Part shown: positions 31,593 through 49,992 of the stretch, piece after piece
Numbering within the stretch: position 1 is the stretch's first letter
Layout: each line of letters begins with the position of its first letter
Source of the DNA: an uncultured Lacinutrix sp.
Lineage (GTDB): Bacteria; Bacteroidota; Bacteroidia; Flavobacteriales; Flavobacteriaceae
Length of the DNA stretch: 64,000 bases
Assembly: GCF_947500325.1 (NCBI RefSeq)
Contig: NZ_CANMRQ010000001.1
Location: 1-64,000 of the forward strand
Reading direction: 5' to 3'
The notes under the pieces: generated by a model
The model's input: only the letters and a program-made list of their open reading frames with translations
What the model was told of the DNA's origin: nothing
The model's database searches: none
Position numbers and translations under genes: made by a program

Positions 31593-32335
31593 TGTATTTC
31601 TTTTAAGAAGAATGCATTAAATTCTTCAGGATTCGGCTTTTTATTAATTAAGTCGTTTTTAATACTATTATTTTCTGTAACAATATCTCTAACTAATGTA
31701 ATTAAAGTGTTGCTAACAGGTTCTGTACTTTTTTCAATATGTTTACTTTTTAAATGAATTAAATCATTTAATATAGTATGGTATTTCTCATCAATTATTG
31801 GGTACAATTCCGTGAACAAAACTGGCGGAATAGTTTCGTTTTTATAAACCCAATTAGCACACAAAGCAGTTCTTATGGCGTAGAAAAAACTTTTTAGCGT
31901 CATTTTATCTGTATCTAGTGTTTCTTCAAAACGGTAGCTCATACTATGGTAATGATAAAAACCAGATACAGGATTAAAGTTGTTTTCTGCCAAAGTTCTA
32001 ATTTCTTTTAAAAAATCGCCATTCGCTCTATACACAATAGGAGAAAATAACCAGCCTAAAAAAGACGCATTAGATTTTGCTAATAATTTTAAAGCTTTGC
32101 GAAATTCCCAACCAGAGCCATCAAGATCGTCTTCTGTCATGAACTCAATAGTATCTTTTTGTTCCCAAAGGTTTAAATACCACTCTTTTTTATGTTTATA
32201 TACAAAACGGATATCGTAATCTGAATCTGGTGACTCAAATCCCCAAGCTCTACTTCCAGATTCTACCGCAAATAGTATGTCTATATTTTTGTCTTTCTCT
32301 ATTTCAGAAAGTTTTTCTAGTATTTTAGTTTTCAT
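31589..32335 (-). CDS. Pol-beta-superfamily minimal nucleotidyltransferase (paralog of 30534-31592)
   Basis: ESGSRAWGFESPDSDYDIRFV motif; 248 aa. Confidence 0.55.
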   Translation of the reverse strand: MKTKILEKLSEIEKDKNIDILFAVESGSRAWGFESPDSDYDIRFVYKHKKEWYLNLWEQKDTIEFMTEDDLDGSGWEFRKALKLLAKSNASFLGWLFSPIVYRANGDFLKEIRTLAENNFNPVSGFYHYHSMSYRFEETLDTDKMTLKSFFYAIRTALCANWVYKNETIPPVLFTELYPIIDEKYHTILNDLIHLKSKHIEKSTEPVSNTLITLVRDIVTENNSIKNDLINKKPNPEEFNAFFLKEIQ

Positions 32336-35105: not shown

Positions 35106-36568
<1,463 letters not shown>

Positions 36569-38432: not shown

Positions 38433-40265
38433 CTAGCTAAAGAGCTTTAAGAAACTATCTTTTTCTAAATTCTCCAAAGAGAAATCAAAGTCTGCTTCAT
38501 CTTTATAATCTGTAATCTCTGCACCTAAAGTTCTAACCAAATTATCAAATGATAACGGTTCGTTCCATTGCTGGTACAAGGCTTTAGTTGCTAATTTTGA
38601 TACTTCAGAATTACCAGAAACTCTGGTGTGACCTGCACCAAAATTTAATAACACAAAGCATTGCTTATCTTTTTTTGGAAGTAACATTCCTAAAATGGTT
38701 TGCTTCTGTACAGATTCACATTTAACATCTGCAAACAAATTGTTTGGATTCATCATATAATCTTTAGAGATTTTATCACCTTTACCAATAACAATTTTGT
38801 AACCACAATCTGTAGTCCCTGAGAACACGTTGTTTTGAACCAAAGTTGGTACATTTAAACCTTTATTAGCATACAAATACTCTACAGCTCCATTTGGAGC
38901 AGACGTAATATCTCCTGAATACATTAGGTTACCCTGTTGTTGGTTATATGTAGCATTCCAACCAATTTTACCAGCAATATTTAAACCAGATAAATCTAAG
39001 TCTCGCGCTCCCCATGCATCTTCCCAATAAATACCTACTGCCAATTTTTTACCATAAAAACGTGTCCCAGTAGGAATATTTCCTACATACATTTTTTCTG
39101 ATGTTGGCAAAGCATAGGTAATGTCCTCAGGAAAAAATAAACGCTTACCAGATAAATTAAAACGTTGTTTTAAATAGTTAAGTAAGAACTCATAATTTTC
39201 CTTAAACACTGTGTTTTCTATAACTGTACCCTTGTATTTACTAGCCTTACTTTTCTTTAAAAGATTAGCAAGGATATTATTTCTACTTACAACAGAAGTA
39301 GTATCAGATTTCACAAATGATTTACCGTTTCTAATTCTGTATAAAAAGGCATCTTGCCCTTGTTTTCTTGAATAGCAAGCAGACAAAGCCTTAAATAATG
39401 CAAAAGGCGTTGCGTTATCTAACCAATGTACATCTTTATCAGTTATCAATGTATTTGTAACATCATTTAACGGATTAGATACTAAAGGTTTGTGATACGT
39501 TTTAGATAGCTTACTAATTTTATTAATCGTTTTTGGAGCTTTGTTTTTAAATGCCAAAAACAAAGGTTTAAATCGATTAAATATCTCAGCAAGTTTTTCT
39601 AATCCAAAACTGTTAAACGCTTGTGTTGGATTGTATGAACTGTTTTTTATCAATTCAATTAACTCATCATTTTTGATTAATAAAGTAGAATCTGTAGCTC
39701 TATAGATAATGTATCTAAAAAACTCAACAGGATGCTCTGGATAAATATTATAATACTCTGCCAATTTTACAATCGCCTCTTTATTTCTAATATTTTCTTT
39801 ACCAGTAAATGTGTAACCTAATTCATCTACCAATACAATGATTAATTCGTCTACAGTATCTTCTTTTAAAGCCATACCAGATTTTAATAAAGCTAAACAT
39901 TTTTGCTTCATTATATCTGCAGAATATGCATTTATAACTTTATAGTTGAGCTTTACATTTGGAATATTTAAAATTTCTTCTGGAATATAAATGTCATCAT
40001 TAAAGTCACTTCCATAGGTTGACATATAGTGTTCTATTTGTCCTGCACACAATTCATATCTAGAGCTATTTTTTATTTTACTCCATGATTTGTGAAACGT
40101 TTTATTTAGATCATTACCATTTAATTTTTCAGCTTTAAAAAAAGTAATGATTCTGTCTTTTGCCCAAAGTGCATTTGGAGCTATGATATAGCCTTCATCT
40201 GAGATGTATGGCTTTTCGTTTGATGTTTTCGCTACTACAGCGTTAAATAATTTTAATGTATTCAT
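38433..40265 (-). CDS. large hypothetical protein
   Basis: 610 aa, no motif recognised. Confidence 0.45.
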   Translation of the reverse strand: MNTLKLFNAVVAKTSNEKPYISDEGYIIAPNALWAKDRIITFFKAEKLNGNDLNKTFHKSWSKIKNSSRYELCAGQIEHYMSTYGSDFNDDIYIPEEILNIPNVKLNYKVINAYSADIMKQKCLALLKSGMALKEDTVDELIIVLVDELGYTFTGKENIRNKEAIVKLAEYYNIYPEHPVEFFRYIIYRATDSTLLIKNDELIELIKNSSYNPTQAFNSFGLEKLAEIFNRFKPLFLAFKNKAPKTINKISKLSKTYHKPLVSNPLNDVTNTLITDKDVHWLDNATPFALFKALSACYSRKQGQDAFLYRIRNGKSFVKSDTTSVVSRNNILANLLKKSKASKYKGTVIENTVFKENYEFLLNYLKQRFNLSGKRLFFPEDITYALPTSEKMYVGNIPTGTRFYGKKLAVGIYWEDAWGARDLDLSGLNIAGKIGWNATYNQQQGNLMYSGDITSAPNGAVEYLYANKGLNVPTLVQNNVFSGTTDCGYKIVIGKGDKISKDYMMNPNNLFADVKCESVQKQTILGMLLPKKDKQCFVLLNFGAGHTRVSGNSEVSKLATKALYQQWNEPLSFDNLVRTLGAEITDYKDEADFDFSLENLEKDSFLKLFS

Positions 40266-40560: not shown

Positions 40561-40563
40561 TTG

Positions 40564-40676
40564 TAGTCCAGGTGGGACTCGAACCCACGACACACGGATT
40601 ATGAATCTATACAGGAACTTTTTTTTGCTGAAGGCGAAAAGTATTTTCGTTGCTCTACCTTCTGAGCTACTGGACT
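40564..40676 (-). tRNA. aberrant tRNA-like gene (113 nt) with perfect acceptor/D/T arms but a 46-nt insertion in the variable region and a non-canonical anticodon arm
   Basis: acceptor AGTCCAG/CTGGACT, D GCTC-AGAAGGTA-GAGC, T GTGGG-TTCGAGT-CCCAC; anticodon region ACGAAAATACTTTTCGC. Confidence 0.4.
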
Positions 40677-40810
40677 ATTTTTTTATTATGTTAAAGAACG
40701 TTGTACCTCTTACCAGATTCGAACTGGTACTTTCACATAACGTGAACAGATTGACTCTAAATGCGCTTCCCTACTATAATTTCGGTGCTTCTGCAAATTC
40801 TATTCGATAG

Positions 40811-41933
40811 CAAGCTTGTCACTAACGACATATTCAATCACTCCGTGGCTACGATTAAAAGTCTTTTACCACAGCTCTTCCTTTTAAGCTAAAGAGGCCT
40901 AATATTTTAAAAAGCGTTCTGAGAATACCTCCGCTTATAAACAAGCTTTCCTAGAATTATAGTTTACACTTTCTCTAGTTTTCCACGTGCTTCTTATTGC
41001 TTAGAGAATTACGTACTTGTTCGATGCCTTAATACATTACAACTGTTCGGCAACTTAGACTTGACTTGCATAGTGACTTTTGTCACGCTTTGCAATTACA
41101 AGGGTTGGCTCCCTCACCATTTATAAGCGTCCTCTTTTGAGGCGGCTTATTAGAATGTTCACCGCAAGACAAAGGTTTGCGACCTCCATCTCCCCATATA
41201 TTACAATGGGTTTAGGCAACTACTAACTGCTGTAATGTTCGAAGTCTTTTGCTTTTTACTCACCAACTGAGCAGTATCAAATTATGGTTTAGATACTAGG
41301 AATCGAACCTAGAAATAAAGTTTTGACCTTGGAAAAGGGCTTCGAAAATGGCTTCGTAGATTTTAGCCTACAAAATACCAACCTTTTCCATGCGTGTTTC
41401 CCAACACACCGTATGTTTAGCTACCGAATAGTTTCCTATCGGGTACCTATAATACTGCAATACGCTCCGTTAAATTGGATGATCTATACGTAACCTATTA
41501 CTACAACTTTTCCTGTTAATGTCTCCATTTCAAGCCTAATTAAATGTTAGCTATAAACCCTTATTTACCTCAGCGGTTGCCCCTTGTAAATAGAAATTTA
41601 TGTTAGTTGCTTGCTTACCTGTACTATACTCAAAAGAATACAGTCTCCATTTGCAGTGTCTGCAAATAGATTTATCCTTGTTACCAAGTTTATCTATGGA
41701 CGATAAGCCGCCCCATTATTTATAATAAATAATGATTTCTTTATATATAGAAGCTATAAATTTTCAGCTTCTTTTAATTTCAATGAACGTTTTTATTAAA
41801 CTCCACCAGCTTCAAAATCTGGTGGAGTACTACTTATAAAGTCTGATTCCAAAAGACTTTTAATTAATTACTCTGCAAATATTTTACACTATTACGCAAT
41901 GTTTTTGCGTAGTTAAAATGATTTATGAAATTT
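40811..41933 (-). ncRNA. 1.1-kb ORF-free, GC-enriched, hairpin-rich block; candidate large structured RNA (strand uncertain), containing a tRNA-like T-arm/acceptor with encoded CCA near 41285-41318
   Basis: no ORF of 60 aa or more in six frames inside a gene-dense island; local GC visibly above flanks; many imperfect hairpins. Confidence 0.3.
41866..41906 (-). promoter_or_regulatory. shared operator/promoter module (third copy) upstream of RNA ligase
   Basis: ACTACGCAAAAACATTGCGTAATAGTGTAAAATATTTGCAG on the minus strand. Confidence 0.5.
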
Positions 41934-42929
41934 TCAATAAAGCTGTAAAATTTCTTGCCTAATAAGCTTAGCAGAGCATTGATTAAGTTGTTTTGTTAAT
42001 CGTTTTTGTTCTACTTTTTCAAGCAATTGAAACGATGTTCCAAATTCTTTTGTGAAATCTTCAAAAGCATCTTTAGAAAGAAAACCAATTAATTTACCAA
42101 TTTGGCAACTGTCTAAATTACTTTCTTTACTCATTACATTTGCCAAACGGTTTGGGTTGATATAACGCTCTAATTCAACCTGTAATAGATTAGCTTCTTT
42201 AGAAAGCTCAATTTGTAATACTGTTTTAGAATTGGCTTTGCTTTTTTCACTCCATTTCGCATTTTTATTTTTAATAATAACTCGATTTCCATTTGGTAAA
42301 AAATGAGGCTCTACAGGTTTAATAACTACACCTTCACAAATATTATCTTTAATTTCAGGTAGTTTTAACCATTTAGGAATTTTGCTTTCAAATGTATTTG
42401 AATACTCTAATGATTCTTTTAATTGACCTCTAAATAATGTTTTTGCATAGAAAAACCCATGTGCTTCTAATAATTGATTTACTTCAATTACATTTAGATA
42501 ATATGACTGGTTAAGCATAATATCAAAAGCATAAAACCCATTATATGGTGCATAAAACACTCCTTTTTGAACCTTCATAGCTCCTCTCGCTTGTTCTATA
42601 TCTGGATAACTCCCGCCAAATAATTCACCAAATACAGTAATAGATTTTGTATCTGAATATTTCTTTTTTATTGCTTCGAAAAGTAATAGCATTTTAGTGT
42701 AATACATCTCTTTAATTAAGGTATGATTGTAAAATGAATCTGAATCTTTTAAAAGACTTGTACGTTTTGCTGATTTTAAATCTTTACCATTAGTAATTAA
42801 ACTAAAATTTGCTCCATGCACTTTTTCCTGTACAACAAAATCATTATTGTTTACGGTAGCTATTGCTACACGTTCTATGAATTCTGTTCTATATGAGTTT
42901 TCAATTGAATTGTATTTTTTAAATTCCAT
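41934..42929 (-). CDS. RNA ligase, T4 Rnl2 family
   Basis: near-colinear with T4 Rnl2: FKKYxSxEN, motif I EKVHGANFSLI, EGVVIKP, NGNRVIIKNKNAKWSEK; 331 aa. Confidence 0.85.
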   Translation of the reverse strand: MEFKKYNSIENSYRTEFIERVAIATVNNNDFVVQEKVHGANFSLITNGKDLKSAKRTSLLKDSDSFYNHTLIKEMYYTKMLLLFEAIKKKYSDTKSITVFGELFGGSYPDIEQARGAMKVQKGVFYAPYNGFYAFDIMLNQSYYLNVIEVNQLLEAHGFFYAKTLFRGQLKESLEYSNTFESKIPKWLKLPEIKDNICEGVVIKPVEPHFLPNGNRVIIKNKNAKWSEKSKANSKTVLQIELSKEANLLQVELERYINPNRLANVMSKESNLDSCQIGKLIGFLSKDAFEDFTKEFGTSFQLLEKVEQKRLTKQLNQCSAKLIRQEILQLY

Positions 42930-43035: not shown

Positions 43036-43521
43036 TTAAACAACCTTATCTGCACAAGATGAACTTGCAAAAGCATAAGGCTTAGCTTTAAAAACGAATC
43101 CCATTCCTAAAATGTAGCCCATAGCATCTTTAAGAGCCACATTAGATTCAAACTTAGGATCTGTATTAATATCTGCGTGAACCTCTAAAGCAACATTATA
43201 TTTATCTAGTATATCACAAATAGCATATGCTACTTCTACAGACATAGTTACTTCTTTAAGCATACGTTCTTTAATACCAATTTGTTTTGTGCCTTTATAG
43301 TTTCTCATAAACATAAAACCTCCTTTTCCTTCACGAAGCACTACAATAACTGTCGCATATTCTACGTGAGAGTTGTAGGCTTGAGAATCTGAACCTACAC
43401 AAACCTTTAGACGATGTCCAGCCTTTTGCTCTCTTATAATGGCATCTTCTAGAATACCAGTAATAGGTTGATCAAAGAATTCACCACTAAAGCTTCTCCA
43501 TTTTTGCTGTTCATTTTTCAT
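43036..43521 (-). CDS. hypothetical protein (possible RNase H-like DUF458/YkuK-type fold, tentative)
   Basis: 161 aa. Confidence 0.3.
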   Translation of the reverse strand: MKNEQQKWRSFSGEFFDQPITGILEDAIIREQKAGHRLKVCVGSDSQAYNSHVEYATVIVVLREGKGGFMFMRNYKGTKQIGIKERMLKEVTMSVEVAYAICDILDKYNVALEVHADINTDPKFESNVALKDAMGYILGMGFVFKAKPYAFASSSCADKVV

Positions 43522-43779
43522 AATATTGACCGCGAAAGCGGTTATCTTTTTAGTTAAATAATTATGTTGTGGAATAAACTGGATTAGCTCGCTAATTTTT
43601 ATTTTTTTAGCTGTGCTCGTGAATGCAAAAGCATTTTAAACCAGTATCTTCCGGGCTTAACTCAATGAATTTTATTTCATTAAATAAGATTCGTTGAATT
43701 CGTAAACTCATTTCTACCGGACGTATAGACCTACCCTTCGACTCCGCTCAGGACATGCTTTGCTATTATTCCTTTTTTG

Positions 43780-43852
43780 GGGTGATTTCGGGACTCGAAC
43801 CCTATTCTTCTCATTCACAGTGAGACATTTTACCTGTTAAACTAAAACCACC
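43780..43852 (-). tRNA. tRNA-His (GTG)
   Basis: anticodon arm TCTCA-CTGTGAA-TGAGA; T-loop TTCGAGT; C73. Confidence 0.65.
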
Positions 43853-43883
43853 ATTTTTAATTCCCATGAAAATGGGAATCTTA

Positions 43884-43958
43884 GTTCTGACAAAAGGATT
43901 TGAACCTTTATCCACAAACGTATCAGGTTTGCACTTTACCAATTAAGCTATGTCAGAA
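43884..43958 (-). tRNA. tRNA-Ile (GAT)
   Basis: acceptor TTCTGAC/GTCAGAA; anticodon arm CAAAC-CTGATAC-GTTTG; T-loop TTCAAAT. Confidence 0.7.
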
Positions 43959-43963
43959 TGTTG

Positions 43964-44034
43964 TTAACCCAATAGGACTCGAACCTATACCTCAAGAGTC
44001 AAAGTCTTGAATGCTGCCATTACACCACAGGTTA
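43964..44034 (-). tRNA. tRNA-Gln (TTG)
   Basis: U1-A72; anticodon arm CAAGA-CTTTGAC-TCTTG; T-loop TTCGAGT. Confidence 0.65.
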
Positions 44035-44040
44035 ATTTTG

Positions 44041-44113
44041 TAAGCTTAATAGGACTCGAACCCATATTCCCAGAGTCGTATTCTGGAGTGTTATCCAATT
44101 ACACCATAAGCTT
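44041..44113 (-). tRNA. tRNA-Arg (ACG)
   Basis: acceptor AAGCTTA/TAAGCTT; D GTGT/ACAC; anticodon arm CCAGA-ATACGAC-TCTGG. Confidence 0.7.
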
Positions 44114-44118
44114 ATTTG

Positions 44119-44192
44119 TATCCTACCTCGGACTCGAACCGAGAAATCACAGCGCTTAAAACTGATGCCTTTTCCAATTTGGCCAGTAGGAC
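44119..44192 (-). tRNA. class-I-shaped tRNA with Leu-type anticodon TAA (short variable arm; T27-T43 mismatch)
   Basis: acceptor GTCCTAC/GTAGGAT; anticodon loop TTTAAGC; variable GATTT; A73. Confidence 0.5.
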
Positions 44193-44197
44193 ATTAG

Positions 44198-44271
44198 TAC
44201 AGGAAGAGAGATTTGAACTCTCAAAATCTTGTTTCTAAAACAAGCGCGTATGCCAGTTCCGCCATTCCTGC
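44198..44271 (-). tRNA. class-I-shaped tRNA with Leu-type anticodon TAG (short variable arm)
   Basis: acceptor GCAGGAA/TTCCTGT; anticodon arm CTTGT-TTTAGAA-ACAAG; variable ATTTT; A73. Confidence 0.5.
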
Positions 44272-44276
44272 ATTAG

Positions 44277-44350
44277 TTGAGATGTCAGGAATCGAACCTG
44301 AACCTTTCGCCTTATGAGAGCGATGCTCTACCTAGTTAAGCTACATCTCA
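44277..44350 (-). tRNA. tRNA with CAT anticodon (Met elongator or Ile-lysidine; not initiator-like)
   Basis: acceptor TGAGATG/CATCTCA; anticodon arm TCGCT-CTCATAA-GGCGA. Confidence 0.65.
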
Positions 44351-44355
44351 ATTTG

Positions 44356-44427
44356 TTGAGGCAATAGGGATCGAACCTATGACTGTCACGATGTAAGCGT
44401 GATGCTCTTCCGCTGAGCTATACCTCA
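44356..44427 (-). tRNA. tRNA-Val (TAC)
   Basis: D GCTC/GAGC; anticodon arm TCACG-CTTACAT-CGTGA; T-loop TTCGATC. Confidence 0.7.
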
Positions 44428-44432
44428 ATTTG

Positions 44433-44504
44433 TACTCTATAAGGGAATCGAACCCTTGTCTTCCGATAGAAAGTCGGATGCACTAACCACTATGCTAATA
44501 GAGC
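44433..44504 (-). tRNA. tRNA-Glu (TTC) with U at position 37
   Basis: anticodon arm TCCGA-CTTTCTA-TCGGA. Confidence 0.6.
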
Positions 44505-44510
44505 ATTTTG

Positions 44511-44582
44511 CGGTTCATACGAGAGTCGAACTCGTATCTCCCGAGAGACAGTCGGGAAGGATAGCCATTACCCCAATGAACC
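44511..44582 (-). tRNA. tRNA-Asp (GTC) with U at position 37, G73
   Basis: acceptor GGTTCAT/ATGAACC; anticodon arm CCCGA-CTGTCTC-TCGGG. Confidence 0.6.
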
Positions 44583-44589
44583 TTTAAAA

Positions 44590-44743
44590 ATTGAAGCTGA
44601 AATCGAAGTCGAACCTGAACTTATATAGCTTCGTTTTTATCTTCATTTTGTACATCTACCTGGATTAGTTCGTATCACACATATTTTTTTAAATGAGTGA
44701 GCTAAATCTTTAGTGCTATCCATTACACCATAAATGCTAATTG
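44590..44743 (-). pseudogene. decayed tRNA remnant(s): intact-looking 5' half (GCATTTA-TG-GTGT-AATGGATA-GCAC) with degenerate anticodon/T region and an unrelated GAAGCT...AGCTTC hairpin
   Basis: 5' half resembles the Arg/Gln genes of the array; no complete cloverleaf can be drawn. Confidence 0.35.
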
Positions 44744-44826
44744 TGGAAGTAGTAGGACTCGAACCTACATGCTCCGAAGAGACCAGATTTACAGTCTGGC
44801 GAGCCAACCAATTGCTCAATACTTCC
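44744..44826 (-). tRNA. tRNA-Tyr (GTA), type II with 14-nt variable arm
   Basis: acceptor GGAAGTA/TACTTCC; anticodon arm CCAGA-CTGTAAA-TCTGG. Confidence 0.7.
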
Positions 44827-44920
44827 AATTTTGAGACAAGGATGAGATTGTTACACGTTCTCATCAAGTCACAAATTGAATGTCACATTTTTAAACAGGT
44901 TTAAAATGTTTTCATCATTG

Positions 44921-44993
44921 AGACAAGGATGAGATTCGAACTCATAAAAAACAGTTTTGCAGACTGTTACTTTAACCATTCAGCCACCTTGTC
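44921..44993 (-). tRNA. tRNA-Cys (GCA), second copy
   Basis: acceptor GACAAGG/CCTTGTC; anticodon arm ACAGT-CTGCAAA-ACTGT; preceded by a 19-bp direct repeat of its own 3' end. Confidence 0.6.
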
Positions 44994-44997
44994 TTTG

Positions 44998-45070
44998 CGA
45001 TAGTGATAGGATTCGAACCTATAACCAAGGACTTAACAGATCCACGCTCTGCCATTGAGCTACACTATCA
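44998..45070 (-). tRNA. tRNA-Asn (GTT), G73
   Basis: acceptor GATAGTG/CACTATC; anticodon loop CTGTTAA. Confidence 0.65.
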
Positions 45071-45075
45071 TTTTG

Positions 45076-45148
45076 AGGAGTTACGGAGACTTGCACTCCA
45101 TTCTGCACATTGCAAACGTGCTGTTTTGGCTTGGTAAACTATAACCCC
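45076..45148 (-). tRNA. tRNA-Ala (TGC) with G3:U70 identity pair and unusual T-loop TGCAAGT
   Basis: acceptor GGGGTTA/TAACTCC; anticodon arm GCACG-TTTGCAA-TGTGC. Confidence 0.6.
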
Positions 45149-45159
45149 ATAATTTTTTG

Positions 45160-45246
45160 CGGAGAGCAAAGGAATCGAACCTTCACCGCCATAAAGCGGA
45201 CTTGTTTAGCAGACAAGCGCAACAAACCAGTATTTGCCTACTCTCC
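45160..45246 (-). tRNA. tRNA-Ser (GCT), type II
   Basis: anticodon arm CTTGT-CTGCTAA-ACAAG; long variable arm; G73. Confidence 0.65.
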
Positions 45247-45259
45247 ATTTATTTATATC

Positions 45260-45333
45260 GTCTAAGAGACAGGATTCGAACCTGCAACCTCTCGCTTCCA
45301 AAGCGAGTAAACTATCCATCGTTCTCCTCTTAG
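45260..45333 (-). tRNA. tRNA-Pro (TGG), C1-G72, A73
   Basis: acceptor CTAAGAG/CTCTTAG; anticodon arm CTCGC-TTTGGAA-GCGAG. Confidence 0.7.
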
Positions 45334-45338
45334 TTTTG

Positions 45339-45425
45339 CGGAAGGAGTGGGAATCGAACCCACACGAGTCGTTATCTCCGAACAGTTTTCAAAACTGTGG
45401 CCACCACCTATTGGCTTGCCCTTCC
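45339..45425 (-). tRNA. tRNA-Ser (TGA), type II
   Basis: anticodon arm ACAGT-TTTGAAA-ACTGT; long variable arm; G73. Confidence 0.65.
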
Positions 45426-45434
45426 ATTTTTTTG

Positions 45435-45508
45435 TTGACGTAGTGAGAGTCGAACTCACATAACCTCGATTAAAAGTCGAGTGCTTTAGCCAGTTAAGCT
45501 ACACGTCA
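45435..45508 (-). tRNA. tRNA-Lys (TTT)
   Basis: acceptor TGACGTG/TACGTCA; D GCTT/AAGC; anticodon arm CTCGA-CTTTTAA-TCGAG. Confidence 0.7.
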
Positions 45509-45794
45509 CTATTTTATTTCAATGAACACCATAAAAAAAGCACCTCATTTTTATGGAAGGTGCTTTCTTTAAATCTATAAATACATCAACTCATGTATCT
45601 ATAACCTTCCTATTATATTTTATAAATCTCTCATCACAACTAGATGCGACCATATTATGCTTCGGCGAGCGAAACCAGAGATTTTGTTTAATTATATGTT
45701 GTAAATAATTTTCCATTATTGTTTTATTTGTTTTTGACGATGCAAAGATGAAACGCTTTTTTGAATTACACAAGAAAAATTTCATTTTAATTTA

Positions 45795-45992
45795 CTGATA
45801 ATCAATTAATTATGTTGTTTTTAGGCAATAGAATTCCTGTCCGTTTTTTAACGGATATTCAACATGTTATACAATAGTCTGTCTCCCAATTGTTTTGCTG
45901 TTTCAATGCTCTATTTTAATCTTTTTACTGTTCTATAATCATTTCAAAAAAAATTAAAAAAAAACGTCCAACTTTTAGGTTGGACGCTTAAT
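45795..45992 (-). repeat. repeat block 1 (upstream of the tRNA array): conserved core TTTTAGGCAATAGAATTCCTG(T/C)CCG plus GCGTCCAAC hairpin/terminator
   Basis: shares an about 48-bp core and a terminal hairpin with 53262-53447. Confidence 0.5.
45955..45990 (-). terminator. rho-independent terminator for the minus-strand gene 46229-47176
   Basis: minus strand reads GCGTCCAACC-TAAAA-GTTGGACG followed by T-run. Confidence 0.6.
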
Positions 45993-46176
45993 ATTCTATT
46001 TTTATTAGAGTTTAAATCATAATCTACTCTTTAAAAAAGATACAAAACGTCCTTCTTGGGGATTCAGTAAAATAACTGCTCCTCTATAATCGCATTCACT
46101 AAAGCGCGATATTGCTTGTTTATGTATTTCTTGTTTTATCATAATTATTTCCCACGAAAGTGGGAATCTGTTTTAT

Positions 46177-46222
46177 TTACACTACAAATATAATTGCAGT
46201 AAGACGCAATCTTTTTACGTAG
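46177..46222 (-). promoter_or_regulatory. shared operator/promoter module (fourth copy)
   Basis: ACTACGTAAAAAGATTGCGTCTTACTGCAATTATATTTGTAGTGTAA on the minus strand. Confidence 0.5.
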
Positions 46223-47211: not shown

Positions 47212-47787
47212 TTAGTTTTGCTGTTGCAAACACCAATGTAAAATTTTTGCAATATTTTTTGCGTCATCTACACCTCGGTGATGCGTCCCTTCTAGAGGTA
47301 TTTTTAAAATATTAAGAGCGCCTTTCATCCCTACTTTTTTATTTAAATCTTTTACCCAACTAAAATGAGTTTTTACATTAATATGTTTTTGAGATAATGG
47401 GTATTCCACACCTCGCAACTTACATTGTTTTTTCATCATATTTAAATCGTAAGCGCCATAGCTTGCCCAAGTGTAATGATTAGCACTGTAATCTTCTCTT
47501 AATTTTACACAAGCTTCTTTAAAAGTAATACCTTCTTTATCTAAAAGATCTTGAGTTATTGTTGTTAGCTCTGTACAAAACGAACTTACCTTAGAGCGTT
47601 CTGGCTTAATTAATATCCCTTCACTTTTTGTAATACTTCCTGTAATTATGTCTAAAACACAAATACCTATTTCTATTATTTCATTTACTTGACCATTTGG
47701 AATTTCCCCATTCCAACACGTAGCCTCTAAATCTATTATAATTATATTTTTATTGTAATTCATTATCTTATTTTTAAAAGTAGACAA
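47212..47787 (-). CDS. DEDD-family 3'-5' exonuclease (DnaQ/KapD-like)
   Basis: Exo I motif IIIDLEATC, downstream acidic motifs, conserved H near C-terminus; 191 aa. Confidence 0.65.
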   Translation of the reverse strand: MSTFKNKIMNYNKNIIIIDLEATCWNGEIPNGQVNEIIEIGICVLDIITGSITKSEGILIKPERSKVSSFCTELTTITQDLLDKEGITFKEACVKLREDYSANHYTWASYGAYDLNMMKKQCKLRGVEYPLSQKHINVKTHFSWVKDLNKKVGMKGALNILKIPLEGTHHRGVDDAKNIAKILHWCLQQQN

Positions 47788-48711: not shown

Positions 48712-49407
48712 TTAGTTATTTAATTCATTGCGTAAATCATTTTTTAATGCGCAACGTTGTTTTTTATATTTTTTTACAACTGTATTCTTTTTAAAATTTG
48801 AGCCTTTAAAAACTTGTATAGGATTACCTCTTTCTAATTTTAAATGGTTTCCCCATTGGTTTTTAATACTCATTTGTAAAGCTTCTAATTGTATTGCGCT
48901 TACTTTTTCTTGCAAGCGTATTTTTGCTATTTTTTTATTTTGATGTTGTGAGCGGCTATCCATAACTAATACTTGTGTTTTAGTTAGTTTATGAATAGCC
49001 CTAATAGCGGAGCTCACTTTATTTACATGCTGTCCTCCAGGTCCAGAACTACGAGTTGCTTGATATGTAATATCTTTGTCATGAATTTGAAATTCTTGAC
49101 TTTGTTCTATCTCATATAAACCCACAAACCAATTTTTACGTTTATGATTTGGCCTAAAAGCCGAAACGCCTATCCACTGTATTGTTCCTTTCCATTGACT
49201 TAAAAACACCTCTAGGTTTTCTCCTTTTAATTGAACAGTAACCGACTGCAATGTCAAATTCTCTATTCCTTTTTCCCTTTGTAATATTTTATAATCAATA
49301 GCATTGCGTTTTACAGCTTCTAAAAATTGCTTTAAAACTTGAGCCACAACCCAACAACATTCTGCTGGTCCTCGACCTGAGGTTATTTGTATTATTTTAG
49401 TATTCAT
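48712..49407 (-). CDS. prfH: peptide chain release factor homologue PrfH (GGQ-containing; RtcB2-associated)
   Basis: matches E. coli PrfH block-by-block: GPAECC, WKGTIQWIGVSAFRPNHKRKNWFVG, RSSGPGGQHVNK, ERGNP; 231 aa. Confidence 0.85.
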   Translation of the reverse strand: MNTKIIQITSGRGPAECCWVVAQVLKQFLEAVKRNAIDYKILQREKGIENLTLQSVTVQLKGENLEVFLSQWKGTIQWIGVSAFRPNHKRKNWFVGLYEIEQSQEFQIHDKDITYQATRSSGPGGQHVNKVSSAIRAIHKLTKTQVLVMDSRSQHQNKKIAKIRLQEKVSAIQLEALQMSIKNQWGNHLKLERGNPIQVFKGSNFKKNTVVKKYKKQRCALKNDLRNELNN

Positions 49408-49966
49408 TTTTATATACTTTTTCTAAAGGATTTTTAGACAGTAATACATTACCAACAGGATTTTCACCTTTCGCAATTAATTGTAACGCTGCTTTTACTG
49501 CCCAGCATTTATCGCTAGAATGAATGTTAGAGTAGAAGCTTAATAACGTTTTTGGCTCAACTAATGTCCAACCATTTACTTTTATAACTTCTACTGTCGC
49601 AGATTCAAAAAAATCTATAGTTACTCTTACTTGTTTTCCTGTTTCTAGCCAATCTATTTTCTCGTAACGTCTAAAATTTTCGTTACTTGGCATATGGTCA
49701 TATCGTGTCCACACTTTTTCGAAACCATTGGCTGCTAGTACTACCATCACTTCTGCAACATCTTTTGGATGTACAAAAATGTCTATATCCTTATGATCAT
49801 GCGCATGTTTGTATTCTGTATGGTCTTCTGGTGACATAAAATGCCATGCCCAACCTCCTGAAATAATAATCCATGCTTTTAATTTATTTAAAATGTCCAA
49901 ACCCTTTTCTATTCTATAGTTTGGCCATTGCTCTCCGTATCTTTTTATGTTATGATTTGCTCCCAT
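49397..49966 (-). CDS. hypothetical protein, possible minimal nucleotidyltransferase (GG...DIDI motif)
   Basis: ISGGWAW...DHKDIDIFV; 189 aa; overlaps prfH start. Confidence 0.35.
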   Translation of the reverse strand: MGANHNIKRYGEQWPNYRIEKGLDILNKLKAWIIISGGWAWHFMSPEDHTEYKHAHDHKDIDIFVHPKDVAEVMVVLAANGFEKVWTRYDHMPSNENFRRYEKIDWLETGKQVRVTIDFFESATVEVIKVNGWTLVEPKTLLSFYSNIHSSDKCWAVKAALQLIAKGENPVGNVLLSKNPLEKVYKNEY

Positions 49967-49992
49967 AATTCCTTTGTTTTTAAAGCAAAAAT

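What the first reader, a model, noticed from the sequence alone, without database searches (positions are those of the whole stretch)
43780..45508. Ultra-dense minus-strand array of about 18 tRNA genes separated by only 5-12 nt
By manual folding, 18 genes fold into cloverleaves. Read in transcription order they are Lys, Ser(TGA), Pro, Ser(GCT), Ala, Asn, Cys, Tyr, Asp, Glu, Val, CAT-anticodon, two Leu-anticodon genes, Arg, Gln, Ile and His. Two decayed remnants are interspersed among them. Spacers are too short for individual promoters, implying one polycistronic precursor that probably starts in repeat block 45795-45992. Gly, Phe, Thr, Trp and a canonical type II Leu gene are absent from the array. 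Arrays of this density are characteristic of phages and of rare bacterial tRNA-array units, not of Flavobacteriia housekeeping loci.
Basis: seen in the sequence. Interest (0 to 1): 0.7.

Follow-up and report, generated by a model that had tools for sequence, protein, structure and literature searches.

The report
Spare tRNA operon in repair island
A marine Flavobacteriaceae chromosome (uncultured Lacinutrix) carries a phage-derived, tightly packed set of 18 extra tRNA genes inside an island of RNA-repair genes, a known kind of element, here apparently switched on through a small leader peptide and terminator when translation falters.

Summary
Fourteen of the 17 spacers are 3-13 nt.

This is not a housekeeping locus. 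It is a long horizontally spread tRNA array (an "L-array" or tRNA-array unit).
- The same-order array (consensus 22 genes) sits at the same position in five related genomes.
- Cloverleaf pairing is maintained: 62 compensatory pairs and 97% canonical cells.
- Individual members are lost or interrupted genome by genome, so they are dispensable.
- The tRNAs are AT-rich, and both Leu genes lack the long variable arm. The same Leu pair occurs in a T5-like vibriophage at 89% identity.

The array lies in a ~30-kb island with two RtcB ligases, PrfH, Rnl2, a CCA-adding enzyme, two RlaP, exonucleases, a GOLLD-like RNA and a WYL regulator.

The new element is inferred, not shown. Every array examined is preceded by a 40-48-codon leader ORF and an intrinsic terminator 14-27 nt before the first tRNA. 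A covarying antiterminator segment lies inside the ORF, which suggests ribosome-mediated attenuation.

In passing I found an undescribed pairing of a tRNA-like modular RNA with a ~600-aa protein, shared with phages.

The parts
43778..45508 (-). Array of 18 tRNA genes (Lys, Ser, Pro, Ser, Ala, Asn, Cys, Tyr, Asp, Glu, Val, CAT, Leu, Leu, Arg, Gln, Ile, His). None but His encodes CCA.
   Evidence: ARAGORN. Rfam RF00005 at 40-71 bits. The same order is found in L010-L013 and L029. Covariation supports the cloverleaves.
44197..44271 (-). tRNA-Leu(TAG), 75 nt. It has a Leu-type 3-bp D-stem and A73, but only a 5-nt variable region.
   Evidence: It is 75 nt in all five related genomes. It is 89% identical to tRNA-Leu(TAG) of Vibrio phage VspSw_1.
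44118..44192 (-). tRNA-Leu(TAA), 75 nt, short variable region, A73.
   Evidence: Nine compensatory pairs among orthologs.
44827..44919 (-). Remnant: a 17-nt exact copy of the 3' end of tRNA-Cys.
   Evidence: Local alignment.
44583..44742 (-). Remnant: the 5' half of tRNA-Arg(TCT), followed by the start of an insertion element (AGCTCAC...). This is the position where relatives carry Gly(TCC), Trp(CCA) and Arg(TCT).
   Evidence: 33 of 34 nt match L010 Arg(TCT). Array order in relatives.
43563..43766 (-). Remnant of tRNA-Phe(GAA) with three insertions: D-loop, anticodon loop and T-loop. The acceptor stem still pairs.
   Evidence: Phe is the last gene of the array in L010-L013.
45531..45571 (-). 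Intrinsic terminator T2 (GCACCT/AGGTGC stem extended by A/U pairs, then T7). It ends 24 nt before tRNA-Lys.
   Evidence: Inverted repeat I5. Conserved in all relatives with an A-U to G-C compensatory change in L012 and L029.
45591..45716 (-). Leader ORF (41 codons, MENYLQHIIKQNLWFRSPKHNMVASSCDERFIKYNRKVIDT).
   Evidence: The ORF, start, stop and in-frame indels are kept in six genomes. There is no third-position bias.
45604..45611 (-). AGGAAGGT, the candidate 5' strand of an antiterminator. It is complementary to ACCTTCC (45555-45561) in the 5' arm and loop of T2.
   Evidence: Script. The analogous segment covaries with the terminator in sister arrays L030 versus L031/L033.
45743..45774 (-). 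Promoter-like element of Bacteroidota type (CTTG, 20 nt, CATCTTTG; consensus TTTG-N19-21-TAnnTTTG).
   Evidence: Read from the sequence. Conserved in alignment A2. The consensus is from my own knowledge of Bacteroidetes promoters.
45962..45989 (-). Intrinsic terminator T1, after the first small ORF.
   Evidence: scan_promoters_terminators. Covaries in A2.
46017..46142 (-). Small ORF 1 (41 aa, MIKQEIHKQAISRFSECDYRGAVILLNPQEGRFVSFLKSRL).
   Evidence: ORF kept in six genomes. Called as a gene in L010, L012 and L013.
46185..46220 (-). Palindromic operator ACGTAA-N5-TTGCGT (46204-46220) followed by the -7 box TATATTTG (46185-46192).
   Evidence: the DNA search found 3 sites in the window against 0.12 expected. 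The same palindrome lies next to WYL genes in other genera.
43036..43521 (-). RNaseH_like (PF04308) gene directly downstream of the array.
   Evidence: Pfam E = 3e-33. Found at the same place in all relatives. Phage homologs lie near tRNA clusters.
41934..42929 (-). Rnl2-family RNA ligase.
   Evidence: Pfam PF09414 and PF18043. Rnl2 lies directly downstream of dense tRNA arrays in other Bacteroidota as well.
41894..41910 (-). Second copy of the operator palindrome, upstream of the GOLLD-like RNA.
   Evidence: Exact match.
40913..41390 (-). GOLLD-like RNA, conserved 3' domain. A 5' domain probably extends to about 41780.
   Evidence: RF02032 at 131.9 bits, E = 1e-35, full model, but below the gathering score of 150. 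Conserved in L011, L012 and L013 at 132-139 bits.
40563..40676 (-). tRNA-like RNA whose anticodon arm is replaced by a conserved hairpin module (ACUUUUCGC...GCA...AAAAGUUCCU).
38433..40265 (-). 610-aa protein of unknown fold that always follows the tRNA-like or modular RNA.
   Evidence: No Pfam, NCBIfam, PHROG or PDB match.
35106..36506 (-). RtcB RNA ligase, copy 1.
   Evidence: Pfam and PHROG.
32325..33779 (-). CCA-adding enzyme / poly(A) polymerase family protein with an HD domain.
   Evidence: Pfam and PHROG phrog_2244.
30534..32335 (-). Two RlaP (RNA-repair-associated pol-beta nucleotidyltransferase) genes.
   Evidence: Pfam PF10127.
47212..47787 (-). RNase_T-family 3'-5' exonuclease.
   Evidence: Pfam. 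A 66% homolog lies next to sister arrays L030-L034.
48712..51384 (-). PrfH-like release-factor homolog (48712-49407), a 189-aa unknown protein, and RtcB copy 2 (49993-51384).
   Evidence: Pfam RF-1 and RtcB. The PrfH-RtcB2 ribosome-repair pair is described in PMC9304027.
54799..56578 (+). Third operator palindrome (54799-54815) and the WYL-WCX-PhyH regulator gene (54857-56578).
   Evidence: A WYL gene flanks the island in L010 and L011 as well.

Best explanation
**What it is.** The array is a supernumerary, horizontally acquired tRNA operon of ultimately phage origin. In the terms of Santamaria-Gomez et al. 2021 it is an L-array. It has become a fixed part of a ~30-kb chromosomal island (about 26.8-56.6 kb of the window) devoted to repairing and replacing the RNAs of the translation machinery.

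**How it most likely works, in order.**
1. Transcription starts at a Bacteroidota-type promoter about 230 nt upstream of tRNA-Lys (inferred).
2. The transcript first encodes a 41-codon leader peptide and then an intrinsic terminator that ends 24 nt before the first tRNA (shown in the sequence and conserved).
3. When translation is healthy, a ribosome reaches the leader stop codon. It then covers the segment AGGAAGGT, so the terminator forms and the array stays silent.
4. When ribosomes stall or fail to load, that segment stays free. This would happen when tRNAs are cut by anticodon nucleases, when charging fails, or when ribosomes are damaged. The free segment pairs with ACCTTCC in the terminator's 5' arm, and the polymerase reads through (inferred; classical attenuation logic).
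5. The product is one precursor carrying 18 tRNAs and probably the RNaseH-like and Rnl2 genes.
6. RNase P cuts the 5' ends. The 3-13-nt spacers are trimmed, and CCA is added. An RNase T-family exonuclease and a CCA-adding enzyme are both encoded in the island.
7. The fresh tRNAs restock the pool, and may also soak up the nucleases. Meanwhile RtcB and Rnl2 reseal cut tRNAs, and PrfH-RtcB2 rescues cleaved ribosomes.
8. A WYL-domain regulator probably co-ordinates the island. Its palindromic operator sits at three promoters.
For: **The tRNAs are real and under selection.**
- 18 of 18 are called by ARAGORN. 17 exceed the Rfam gathering score, and the 18th, Ser(TGA), is taken by the related tRNA-Sec model at 46.7 bits against its gathering score of 47.
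- Across 19 orthologous families in five genomes, 405 pairs were examined. 62 show compensatory changes, 33 show one-sided changes, and 97.2% of cells are canonical.
- Identity elements are present: Ala G3:U70, His G-1/C73, Cys U73, Pro C1:G72, Leu A73, and long arms kept in Ser and Tyr only (read by eye).

**The array is supernumerary and foreign.**
- Members are lost or interrupted in a genome-specific way.
- G+C is 36-53%, against 53-59% for solitary tRNAs.
- A related contig carries both an array copy and a canonical copy of Asp(GTC).
- The short-arm Leu pair is shared with a T5-like phage at 89% identity.
- A short-arm Leu(TAG) was reported before in transferred mycobacterial tRNA clusters (PMC6582537).

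**The island context is RNA repair.** Pfam and PHROG hits cover RtcB x2, PrfH, Rnl2, a CCA-adding enzyme, RlaP x2, RNase_T and R2K. The same gene set is found in L010-L013 and L029. Rnl2 lies directly downstream of dense arrays in other Flavobacteriales and in a Chitinophagaceae MAG.

**The attenuator is supported by conservation.**
- The upstream 720 nt are 84% conserved.
- In all 10 arrays checked, a 40-48-codon ORF ends 25-30 nt before a terminator whose T-run ends 14-27 nt before the first tRNA.
- In 9 of the 10 the script found a 6-8-nt segment complementary to the terminator's 5' arm within the ORF's last 7-10 codons. In the tenth, L034, it found no exact match; TGGTGC (one mismatch) sits at that position by eye.
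- That segment changes together with the terminator: AGGCGC/GCGCCT in L030 versus AGGTGC/GCACCT in L031 and L033.
- No terminator lies inside the array.

**The operator is non-random.** There are three sites in the window against 0.12 expected. One is at the WYL gene's own promoter. The same palindrome lies beside WYL, RtcB and the 600-aa gene in Chryseobacterium and Aquimarina.

**Literature precedent.** L-arrays are induced by translational stress, are co-regulated with rtcB, and have neighbourhoods enriched in RNA-processing genes (PMC8421152).
Against: - There are no expression data of any kind.
- The host's full tRNA set could not be examined, so redundancy is inferred from comparative loss, not counted.
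- The leader ORF shows no third-codon-position bias (21, 23 and 23 variable columns of 41) and no run of regulatory codons. Translation of the ORF rests only on ORF maintenance and in-frame indels.
- In the Lacinutrix group both strands of the proposed antiterminator are invariant, so covariation comes only from the sister family.
- The antiterminator is short (6-8 bp) and thermodynamically weaker than the terminator.
- The WYL operator sits at the promoter of small ORF 1, and a strong terminator (T1) separates that ORF from the array leader. Direct WYL control of the array is therefore uncertain.
- Several members are decaying. The array could be partly on its way out in this genome.
Confidence: 0.72

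Rival explanations
1. It is the cargo of a prophage or other integrated mobile element that is still mobile. On this reading the tRNAs serve the element (codon supply during lytic growth), not the host.
For: - The tRNAs are phage-like.
- GOLLD RNAs are typical of phages and prophages (PMC12286853).
- The nearest non-Bacteroidota relatives of Rnl2, the RNaseH-like protein and the 610-aa protein are in phage contigs next to tRNA clusters.
- A PcfJ-like gene lies at 51433-52806.
Against: - None of the proteins scanned with Pfam, PHROGs or NCBIfam is a capsid, tail, terminase, portal, integrase or replication protein. The scans covered most but not all ORFs of 80 aa or more in the 64-kb window.
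- The island lies at the same chromosomal site, between the WYL/ABC/T9SS genes and the ACPS/ketosynthase cluster, in another genus (L010).
- It is present in genomes assigned to four genera (Lacinutrix, Psychroserpens, Bizionia, Winogradskyella) and in one unassigned ENA metagenome contig (L012), with 76-90% protein identity. This fits vertical inheritance after an old acquisition.
- No phage or plasmid record carries it.
Confidence: 0.12
2. The array tRNAs act mainly as decoys (sponges) for anticodon nucleases or other tRNA-targeting toxins, or as nuclease-resistant variants, and not as general replacements.
For: - The sponge idea was raised for the Anabaena array (PMC8421152).
- The sequences differ strongly from housekeeping tRNAs.
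- The second mini-array at 28143-28468 has two members with aberrant anticodon loops (A33).
- The island is full of repair enzymes that presuppose cleavage.
Against: - Aminoacylation identity elements are kept. Long arms are retained exactly where the synthetase needs them (Ser, Tyr) and lost where it does not (Leu). This points to selection for charging.
- The anticodon loops of the 18 are canonical (U33, purine 37).
- The ancestral set covers 19 amino acids, as expected for a working set.
Confidence: 0.1
3. It is the housekeeping tRNA operon of this bacterium.
For: It is chromosomal, conserved in several genera, and structurally intact for 18 genes.
Against: - Gly, Thr, Trp and a working Phe are missing here.
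- Relatives lack different members, including single-isoacceptor species such as Tyr, Trp and Met.
- The tRNAs have low G+C, and no type II Leu is present.
- A terminator sits directly in front of the first gene.
Confidence: 0.03
4. It is a decaying relic: transferred tRNA genes that are no longer expressed and are drifting to pseudogenes.
For: Three wrecked genes lie in or beside the array. Relatives carry interrupted Tyr and Trp genes. L-arrays were long regarded as cryptic (PMC8421152).
Against: 62 compensatory base-pair changes and 97% canonical pairing across five genomes, together with an 84%-conserved leader, are not expected for neutral drift.
Confidence: 0.03

Closest known systems
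L-arrays / tRNA array units, e.g. the Anabaena sp. PCC 7120 trn operon (Santamaria-Gomez et al. 2021, PMC8421152)
   Same: - Many same-strand tRNA genes with very short spacers.
- Non-periodic content covering most amino acids.
- Spread by horizontal transfer, and redundant with the housekeeping set.
- Some pseudogenes are present.
- Neighbours are enriched in RNA-processing genes, including rtcB.
- The proposed role is in surviving translational stress.
   Different: - The host phylum is Bacteroidota. The paper lists this phylum as having L-arrays but does not analyse them.
- The array is chromosomal and syntenic across genera, not plasmid-borne.
- No HNH homing endonuclease was seen next to it.
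- Control appears to be through a leader ORF plus terminator and a WYL-type operator. Anabaena uses a TrcR repressor acting on direct repeats.
- The repair gene complement is much larger.
Mycobacterium tRNA arrays carrying GOLLD RNA (Behra et al. 2019, PMC6582537; Morgado et al. 2020, cited in PMC12286853)
   Same: - A transferred tRNA cluster physically linked to a GOLLD RNA.
- tRNA-like sequence inside or next to GOLLD.
[quoted passage not shown]
   Different: - The phylum is different.
- GOLLD here scores below the Rfam gathering score (132 versus 150 bits).
- GOLLD lies after the array and two protein genes, not inside the array.
- It is accompanied by RtcB, Rnl2, PrfH and a 610-aa protein.
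Phage tRNA clusters with RNA repair enzymes (T4 tRNA cluster with PNK and Rnl1/Rnl2 countering PrrC; T5-like and cyanophage S-CRM01 tRNA clusters)
   Same: - Dense, AT-rich tRNAs.
- An Rnl2 ligase.
- The short-arm Leu(TAG)/Leu(TAA) pair is shared with a T5-like vibriophage.
- The 610-aa protein homolog sits inside the S-CRM01 tRNA cluster.
   Different: Here the set is resident in a bacterial chromosome without phage structural genes. Presumably it serves the cell and not a virus.
Leader-peptide transcription attenuators (trp, his, pheA operons)
   Same: - A short ORF is followed by mutually exclusive antiterminator and terminator pairings.
- The antiterminator's 5' strand lies where a terminating ribosome would mask it.
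   Different: - It controls tRNA genes, not amino-acid biosynthesis genes.
- There is no run of codons for one amino acid.
- It occurs in Bacteroidota.
- It is untested experimentally.

Membership tests
L-array / tRNA array unit | Long run of tRNA genes in one orientation, close enough to be co-transcribed | tested here: met
   18 genes in 1731 nt. 14 spacers are 3-13 nt. There is no internal terminator on the array's strand.
L-array / tRNA array unit | Non-periodic gene content covering most amino acids | tested here: met
   The 18 genes serve 16 or 17 amino acids, depending on whether the CAT gene is Met or Ile. The consensus of relatives is 22 genes for 19 amino acids, lacking only Thr. The only internal duplication is a 17-nt Cys fragment.
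L-array / tRNA array unit | Adds supernumerary genes that are redundant with a housekeeping set | tested here: inconclusive
   The evidence is indirect only. Members are lost in a genome-specific way, including sole isoacceptors. A sister contig holds both an array copy and a canonical copy of Asp(GTC). G+C is atypical and the Leu genes have short arms. The host's whole tRNA set was not available.
L-array / tRNA array unit | Acquired by horizontal transfer | tested here: met
   Leu(TAG) is 89% identical to a vibriophage tRNA, with the same Leu-Leu adjacency. Related arrays are linked to Rnl2 in scattered Bacteroidota lineages, whereas many other Rnl2 loci have no array. Within the Lacinutrix, Psychroserpens, Bizionia and Winogradskyella group the island looks vertically inherited.
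L-array / tRNA array unit | Neighbourhood enriched in RNA-processing and translation genes | tested here: met
   RtcB x2, PrfH, Rnl2, a CCA-adding enzyme, RlaP x2, RNase_T and an RNaseH-like protein.
L-array / tRNA array unit | Silent normally and induced by translational stress | not testable with these tools
   Only the leader ORF and terminator architecture suggests this.
Prophage tRNA cluster | Embedded among phage structural, replication or integration genes | tested here: not met
   None was found among the proteins scanned with Pfam, PHROGs or NCBIfam. A few short ORFs were not scanned.
Housekeeping tRNA operon | Canonical tRNA structures (type II Leu) that are indispensable in relatives | tested here: not met
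   Both Leu genes have a 5-nt variable region. Members differ between relatives.
GOLLD RNA (Rfam RF02032) | Score at or above the curated gathering score (150 bits) | tested here: not met
   131.9 bits in the window and 131.7-138.8 bits in three relatives. However, E = 1e-35, the whole model is matched, and the pseudoknot and signature loops align. I call it GOLLD-like.
GOLLD RNA (Rfam RF02032) | Located next to tRNA genes, with tRNA-like sequence in or beside it | tested here: met
   A T-arm-like sequence lies in the linker. tRNA-like elements lie directly downstream. The array is 2.4 kb upstream.
Leader-peptide transcription attenuator | Short ORF, then an intrinsic terminator directly upstream of the regulated genes | tested here: met
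   Found in all 10 arrays examined.
Leader-peptide transcription attenuator | Alternative antiterminator pairing that a terminating ribosome would mask | tested here: inconclusive
   A complementary 6-8-nt segment lies in the last 7-10 codons. It covaries with the terminator between L030 and L031/L033, but is invariant within the Lacinutrix group.
Leader-peptide transcription attenuator | Run of regulatory codons in the leader | tested here: not met
   The 41 codons use 19 different amino acids, with no run.

The most novel reading that the evidence does not exclude
The array is one output of a previously undescribed 'translation rescue' regulon in Flavobacteriia, which has three parts.

(a) tRNA arrays are gated by ribosome-sensing leader-peptide attenuators. 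The cell would then transcribe spare tRNAs exactly when its ribosomes stall.

(b) A WYL-domain regulator controls the array leader region, the GOLLD RNA and the repair genes through the palindrome ACGCAA-N5-TTGCGT.

(c) The island holds a new ribonucleoprotein shared with tRNA-rich phages. It consists of a tRNA-like RNA carrying one to five conserved hairpin modules ending in GUUCCU, and a ~600-aa protein of unknown fold that always follows the RNA. This pairing plays a part comparable to Ro with its Y RNA in the proteobacterial rsr-yrlA-rtcBA operon.
Probability: 0.35. Interest if true: 0.75.

Novelty: new member of a known kind. Interest (0 to 1): 0.55.

Why it matters
**Function of L-arrays.** Long tRNA arrays are known, but their function has been examined experimentally in very few organisms, above all one cyanobacterium. 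This locus shows the same kind of element fixed in a group of marine Flavobacteriaceae. It is wired into the richest RNA-repair gene set I have seen described around such an array: two RtcB, PrfH, Rnl2, a CCA-adding enzyme, RlaP and exonucleases.

**A testable switch.** If the leader-peptide attenuator is real, it explains simply how a cell keeps a foreign tRNA set silent and releases it only when translation fails. It can be tested with reporter fusions.

**A route to GOLLD function.** The locus places a GOLLD-like RNA, whose function has been open since 2009, under the same putative regulator as tRNA and ribosome repair genes. The hosts include cultured isolates (Winogradskyella, and Chryseobacterium for the RNA/600-aa pair), which gives a route to genetics.

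Tried and rejected
- **Source contig look-up.** Exact-protein look-up with three window proteins found nothing on record. The source was identified instead through a 100% identical Rnl2 named 'uncultured Lacinutrix sp.'.
- **Phage and plasmid records.** blastn of the array against cultured phages and of the array region against plasmids found no record holding the array. Only single-tRNA-sized matches turned up.
It was rejected. Only low-complexity matches and terminator T1 are there.
- **The 113-nt 'tRNA(CAT) with a 40-nt intron' after GOLLD (ARAGORN -i).** The intron reading was rejected. The segment next to the 3' stem strand is not conserved as an anticodon loop, and the insert is a conserved structured module also found in phages.
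- **Protein-spliced (bulge-helix-bulge type) introns.** I considered this for the interrupted Tyr (L013), Trp (L010) and Phe (window) genes, given the two RtcB genes. MFE folds gave no clear bulge-helix-bulge, and no exon junction restores the original anticodon loop. This is left open, not supported.
- **The 610-aa protein.** Pfam, PHROGs, NCBIfam and PDB sequence searches gave nothing. The AlphaFold2 model has pLDDT 64. Foldseek against PDB gave nothing at E <= 0.001. hhalign against a TROVE/Ro protein showed no relation. A TerD-like motif in the C-terminal half is seen by eye only.
- **The 'RNase H' (g171) in the cyanophage S-CRM01 tRNA cluster.** It is not related to the island's PF04308 protein.
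- **T-box or other known riboswitch in the leader.** None was found by Rfam at E <= 1.
- **The sigma-70 promoter scan.** It is uninformative here: 19 sites found against 23.6 expected. Bacteroidota promoters are of another type.

Full report
**1. The observation**

ARAGORN finds 22 tRNA genes in the window. Eighteen of them form one minus-strand run at 43778-45508. In transcription order they are Lys(TTT), Ser(TGA), Pro(TGG), Ser(GCT), Ala(TGC), Asn(GTT), Cys(GCA), Tyr(GTA), Asp(GTC), Glu(TTC), Val(TAC), CAT, Leu(TAG), Leu(TAA), Arg(ACG), Gln(TTG), Ile(GAT) and His(GTG).

- **Model scores.** Infernal with the Rfam tRNA model gives 40-71 bits (gathering score 29) for 17 of them. Ser(TGA) is claimed by the related tRNA-Sec model at 46.7 bits.
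- **Spacers.** Fourteen spacers are 3-13 nt. Three are longer: 32, 93 and 160 nt.
- **Cloverleaves.** All 18 are regular, with U33 and a purine at position 37.
- **Identity elements (read).** Ala has G3:U70. His has G-1 with C73. Cys has U73. Pro has C1:G72. Both Leu have A73. Ser and Tyr keep long variable arms.
- **The CAT gene.** It is of elongator type. It has a paired 1:72 and lacks the three G-C pairs of initiator anticodon stems.
- **CCA.** Only His encodes CCA.

**2. The remnants**

- The 93-nt gap (44827-44919) contains an exact 17-nt copy of the 3' end of tRNA-Cys.
- The 160-nt gap (44583-44742) starts with the 5' half of tRNA-Arg(TCT), matching 33 of 34 nt of the intact gene in L010. 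It then runs into an insertion.
It is tRNA-Phe(GAA) with insertions in the D-loop, anticodon loop and T-loop.
- The 'repeat block 45795-45992' does not exist as such.

**3. Where the window comes from, and the related loci**

- The Rnl2 ligase gene beside the array is 100% identical to a protein named 'uncultured Lacinutrix sp.' on a 604-kb contig.
- The window's outer parts carry ordinary Bacteroidota genes. These include a flexirubin-type polyketide cluster, a T9SS-sorted protein and prolyl oligopeptidase. The locus is therefore chromosomal.
- I fetched related loci through Rnl2 homologs of 76-84% identity. They come from uncultured Psychroserpens (L010, L011), an ENA assembly (L012), uncultured Bizionia (L013) and the isolate Winogradskyella sp. 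SYSU M77433 (L029).
- L010-L013 carry the array in the same order directly upstream of the same two genes, the RNaseH-like PF04308 gene and Rnl2. L029 carries a 14-gene version at the same place with Leu(TAA) and Leu(TAG) swapped.
- The consensus order has 22 genes: Lys, Ser, Pro, Ser, Ala, Asn, Cys, Tyr, Gly(TCC), Trp(CCA), Arg(TCT), Asp, Glu, Val, CAT, Leu(TAG), Leu(TAA), Arg(TCG or ACG), Gln, Ile, His, Phe(GAA). That covers 19 amino acids; only Thr is missing.
- In L010 the island lies between a WYL/ABC/T9SS gene group and the ACPS/ketosynthase cluster. These are the same neighbours as in the window. Together with its presence in four genera, this points to an old acquisition followed by vertical descent.

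**4. The genes are functional, but they are not the housekeeping set**

- **Selection on structure.** Across 19 orthologous tRNA families I counted 405 base pairs. 290 are invariant, 33 are changed on one side with pairing kept, 62 are changed on both sides with pairing kept, and 20 have at least one non-canonical cell. Overall 97.2% of cells are canonical. This is selection on cloverleaf structure, not drift.
- **Dispensability.** Each genome has lost or interrupted different members.
  - The window lacks Gly, Trp, Arg(TCT) and Phe.
  - L012 lacks the CAT gene.
  - L013 lacks Ser(TGA), Ala, Gly, Trp, Arg(TCT) and Glu, and its Tyr carries a 48-nt insertion.
  - L010 has a 49-nt insertion in Trp.
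  - Trp, Tyr, Phe and Met have a single anticodon each. These genes can only be lost if another copy exists.
- **Composition.** The array tRNAs are 36-53% G+C (mean 46%). Solitary tRNAs in related Bacteroidota loci are 53-59%, and their Leu(TAG) is 83 nt with a long arm.
- **Both copies on one contig.** One sister contig (L031) holds both an array Asp(GTC) and a canonical solitary Asp(GTC).
- **Limit.** The direct test, a scan of the host's whole genome, could not be run.

**5. Phage ancestry**

- Both Leu genes have a Leu-type D-arm (3-bp stem, long loop) but a 5-nt variable region. This holds in the window and in L010-L013; in L029 (Winogradskyella) Leu(TAA) is 87 nt with a long arm.
- Leu(TAG) is 89% identical to a tRNA of the T5-like Vibrio phage VspSw_1. 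In that phage a short-arm Leu(TAG) is likewise followed by a short-arm Leu(TAA).
- A short-arm Leu(TAG) has been noted in transferred mycobacterial tRNA clusters (PMC6582537).
- From my own knowledge, bacterial LeuRS does not need the long arm, whereas SerRS and bacterial TyrRS do. The pattern 'arm lost in Leu, kept in Ser and Tyr' therefore fits selection for charging.
- Phage-contig relatives of Rnl2 and of the PF04308 protein (32-40% identity) also lie near tRNA clusters.

**6. The island**

All genes from about 26.8 to 52.8 kb are on the minus strand. In transcription order (decreasing coordinates) they include:
- PcfJ-like gene
- RtcB copy 2, a 189-aa unknown protein and a PrfH-like release-factor homolog. 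PrfH with RtcB2 is the pair shown to rescue and reseal colicin-E3-cut ribosomes (PMC9304027).
- TPR protein, a 119-aa unknown protein, an RNase_T-family exonuclease and an Ntn-hydrolase
- the array
- RNaseH-like gene and Rnl2
- a GOLLD-like RNA
- a 610-aa unknown protein, an R2K ATP-grasp protein and RtcB copy 1
- a CCA-adding enzyme and two RlaP genes
- an SDR, a second mini-array of four odd tRNAs, and a DUF434/DUF5616 protein

A WYL-WCX-PhyH regulator gene lies on the other strand at 54857-56578. None of the proteins scanned is a phage structural or integration protein.

The link between Rnl2 and tRNA arrays is wider than this clade.
- In four Flavobacteriales MAGs, Rnl2 (45-48% identity) starts about 40-70 nt after a dense array of 6-10 tRNAs.
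- In a Chitinophagaceae MAG it starts about 30 nt after an array of four.
- The homologous exonuclease and an RtcB2-like gene lie nearby.

**7. How the array is probably expressed**

The 720 nt upstream of tRNA-Lys are 84% identical across five genomes. This is as conserved as the tRNAs themselves. In transcription order they hold:
1. The palindrome ACGTAA-N5-TTGCGT (46204-46220), followed by TATATTTG. TATATTTG matches the Bacteroidota -7 consensus TAnnTTTG, which I cite from my own knowledge.
2. A 41-codon ORF (46017-46142).
3. Terminator T1 (45962-45989).
4. About 150 nt of conserved non-coding sequence.
5. A second promoter-like element, CTTG-N20-CATCTTTG (45743-45774).
6. A second 41-codon ORF (45591-45716).
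7. A hairpin that encloses the stop codon of that ORF.
8. Terminator T2 (45531-45571) with a T7 run, ending 24 nt before tRNA-Lys.

There is no room for a promoter after T2. Any transcript of the array must therefore read through T2.

Evidence on the second ORF:
- It is open in all six genomes. Start and stop are conserved, and all indels are in frame.
- It shows no third-position bias.

Evidence on the antiterminator:
- Codons 36-38 of the ORF contain AGGAAGGT, which is complementary to ACCTTCC in the 5' arm and loop of T2.
- A script applied to ten arrays found the same plan in every one: a 40-48-codon ORF ending 25-30 nt before a terminator, whose T-run ends 14-27 nt before the first tRNA.
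- In nine of them a 6-8-nt segment in the last 7-10 codons is complementary to the terminator's 5' arm. In L034 the script found no exact match; the site reads TGGTGC, one mismatch.
- In the sister family this segment changes together with the terminator. L030 has AGGCGC with GCGCCT/AGGCGC. L031 and L033 have AGGTGC with GCACCT/AGGTGC.

This is the layout of a classical ribosome-mediated attenuator. A ribosome that reaches the stop codon masks the antiterminator strand, so the terminator forms. A ribosome that stalls earlier, or is absent, leaves the strand free and allows read-through.

I found no description of such control of a tRNA array in the paper library. In Anabaena the array is controlled by a repressor acting on direct repeats, and it is induced by translational stress together with rtcB (PMC8421152). 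The mechanism proposed here is inference from sequence; nothing has been measured.

**8. A probable common regulator**

- The palindrome ACGCAA-N5-TTGCGT occurs three times in the window with at most one mismatch. By chance 0.12 sites are expected, and none of 100 shuffles reached three.
- The three sites are in front of small ORF 1 and the array leader, in front of the GOLLD-like RNA, and in the divergent region in front of the WYL gene.
- The exact palindrome also lies beside WYL genes, RtcB and the 600-aa gene in Chryseobacterium and Aquimarina loci.
- A WYL-domain regulator is therefore the likely controller of the island.
- Terminator T1 lies between the first operator and the array leader, so direct control of the array is uncertain.

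**9. Comparison with what is known**

The locus meets the structural definition of an L-array / tRNA array unit. It shares the RNA-processing neighbourhood of such arrays (PMC8421152) and the GOLLD link described for Mycobacterium arrays (PMC6582537; Morgado et al. 2020 as cited in PMC12286853). I therefore file it as a new member of a known kind.

What is not described, as far as the library shows, is the following:
- the Bacteroidota lineage of arrays tied to Rnl2, RtcB and PrfH
- the leader-ORF and terminator gate
- the WYL operator

The GOLLD-like RNA is below Rfam's gathering score (131.9 versus 150 bits). However, it matches the full model with E = 1e-35 and is conserved in three relatives.

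**10. Side finding**

- **A misread 'intron tRNA'.** The '113-nt tRNA with a 40-nt intron' after GOLLD (40563-40676) is not an intron-containing tRNA.
- **Its structure.** It has a tRNA-like acceptor stem, D-arm and T-arm, and a covarying stem in place of the anticodon stem. That stem encloses a conserved hairpin module, ACUUUUCGC-loop-GCA-(A-rich bulge)-AAAAGU-UCCU.
- **Occurrence in phages.** An exact-pattern scan of viral contigs returned 11 loci, and 6 have the same architecture. One variant has a compensatory outer stem (AGUAUU/AAUGCU).
- **Link to the 610-aa protein.** In 5 of those 6 loci, a homolog of the island's 610-aa protein lies just downstream.
- **The protein family.** It has more than 2000 members at 67-91% identity across Flavobacteriaceae and Weeksellaceae. 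All are annotated as hypothetical. It has no Pfam, NCBIfam, PHROG, PDB-sequence or Foldseek match.
- **Conserved upstream leader.** Three to five such modules, each ending in GUUCCU, always precede the gene. This holds in the window (40300-40560), in Chryseobacterium, in Aquimarina and in cyanophage S-CRM01. In S-CRM01 the gene sits in the middle of the phage's tRNA cluster.
- **Co-occurrence.** L010 lacks GOLLD, the RNA and the protein together.
- **Reading.** This looks like an undescribed RNA-protein pair linked to RtcB and tRNA arrays. Its function is unknown.

Noticed in passing
window 40913-41390 (-), probably extending to about 41780: A GOLLD-like large structured RNA. It scores 131.9 bits against RF02032 with E = 1e-35 and the full model matched, but falls below the gathering score of 150. 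A T-arm-like sequence sits in its linker. It is conserved in L011, L012 and L013, and absent from L010.
   Followed up: partly
window 40563-40676 (-); L011 13705-13818; L012 12325-12438; L013 12387-12500; L050 about 9637-9750; viral L014, L015, L016, L017, L020, L021: A tRNA-like RNA whose anticodon arm is replaced by a conserved hairpin module (ACUUUUCGC..GCA..AAAAGUUCCU). The enclosing stem covaries. Rfam sees it only as a tRNA. It also occurs in phage tRNA clusters.
   Followed up: partly
window 38433-40265 (-) with its upstream leader 40266-40560: A 610-aa protein with no detectable family or fold match, yet 67-91% identical across Flavobacteriaceae and Weeksellaceae. It is always preceded by 3-5 hairpin modules ending in GUUCCUAU. 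Homologs occur in tRNA-rich cyanophages (S-CRM01 g174, S-CBWM1). It lies adjacent to RtcB and a WYL regulator in Chryseobacterium and Aquimarina.
   Followed up: partly
window 40703-40898 (-); L012 12045-12305: A second tRNA-like element (acceptor, D-arm and T-arm) with a 105-186-nt insertion. It lies between the GOLLD-like RNA and the modular tRNA-like RNA, and is absent in L011.
   Followed up: no
window 28143-28468 (-): A second mini-array of four tRNA-like genes called Val(TAC), Cys(ACA), Glu(CTC) and Cys(GCA). They share D- and T-arm sequences. The first two have A instead of U at position 33. The mini-array and the flanking SDR gene (which has a phage-type FabG-like PHROG hit) have no counterpart in the related islands.
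   Followed up: partly
window 41894-41910, 46204-46220, 54799-54815: The palindrome ACGCAA-N5-TTGCGT occurs at three promoters: GOLLD, the array leader region, and the WYL gene. Three sites were found against 0.12 expected. The same palindrome lies next to WYL, RtcB and the 600-aa gene in Chryseobacterium and Aquimarina.
   Followed up: partly
L013 8418-8549 (Tyr); window about 43650-43720 (in the Phe wreck); L010 8224-8348 (Trp); window 44700-44710: Short insertion elements sit in tRNA anticodon loops. A ~45-nt palindromic element (AATTCAACGA..TTATTTA..TAAATA..AATTCATTGAGTT) is in Tyr of L013 and in Phe of the window. A 49-nt element starting TAGCTCAC is in Trp of L010 and in the Arg(TCT) wreck of the window. 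The exons around them remain well formed. Whether these are selfish insertions or spliced introns is open; two RtcB ligases are encoded nearby.
   Followed up: partly
window 46017-46142 (-): A conserved 39-47-aa ORF (MIKQEIHKQAISRFSECDYRGAVILLNPQEGRFVSFLKSRL) with its own operator/promoter and terminator. It is present upstream of the array in all six related genomes. Its function is unknown.
   Followed up: partly
window 48712-51384 (-): A PrfH-like release-factor homolog and a second RtcB, separated by a 189-aa unknown protein. This corresponds to the known PrfH-RtcB2 ribosome rescue and repair pair.
   Followed up: no
window about 9800-26700: About 17 kb lie between the ACPS gene and the island and are absent at this site in L010. 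The region holds TPR proteins, a histidine kinase, a response regulator, several unknown proteins, and a 1629-aa DUF3686/DUF7902/AAA protein. It may be a separate inserted system.
   Followed up: no
window 46149-46166 and 43860-43879: Two copies of a near-identical hairpin, TTCCCA(C/T)TTTC(G/A)TGGGAA. One is at the 5' end of the small ORF 1 transcript. The other is in the 32-nt spacer between tRNA-Ile and tRNA-His. They may be processing or stability signals.
   Followed up: no
L052 14442-16040; L030, L031, L033, L034 about 9000-9960: Other Bacteroidota carry related but differently ordered dense arrays, each beside RtcB or Rnl2 and each with short-arm Leu(TAG). These are Aquimarina, several Flavobacteriales MAGs and a Chitinophagaceae MAG.
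   Followed up: partly
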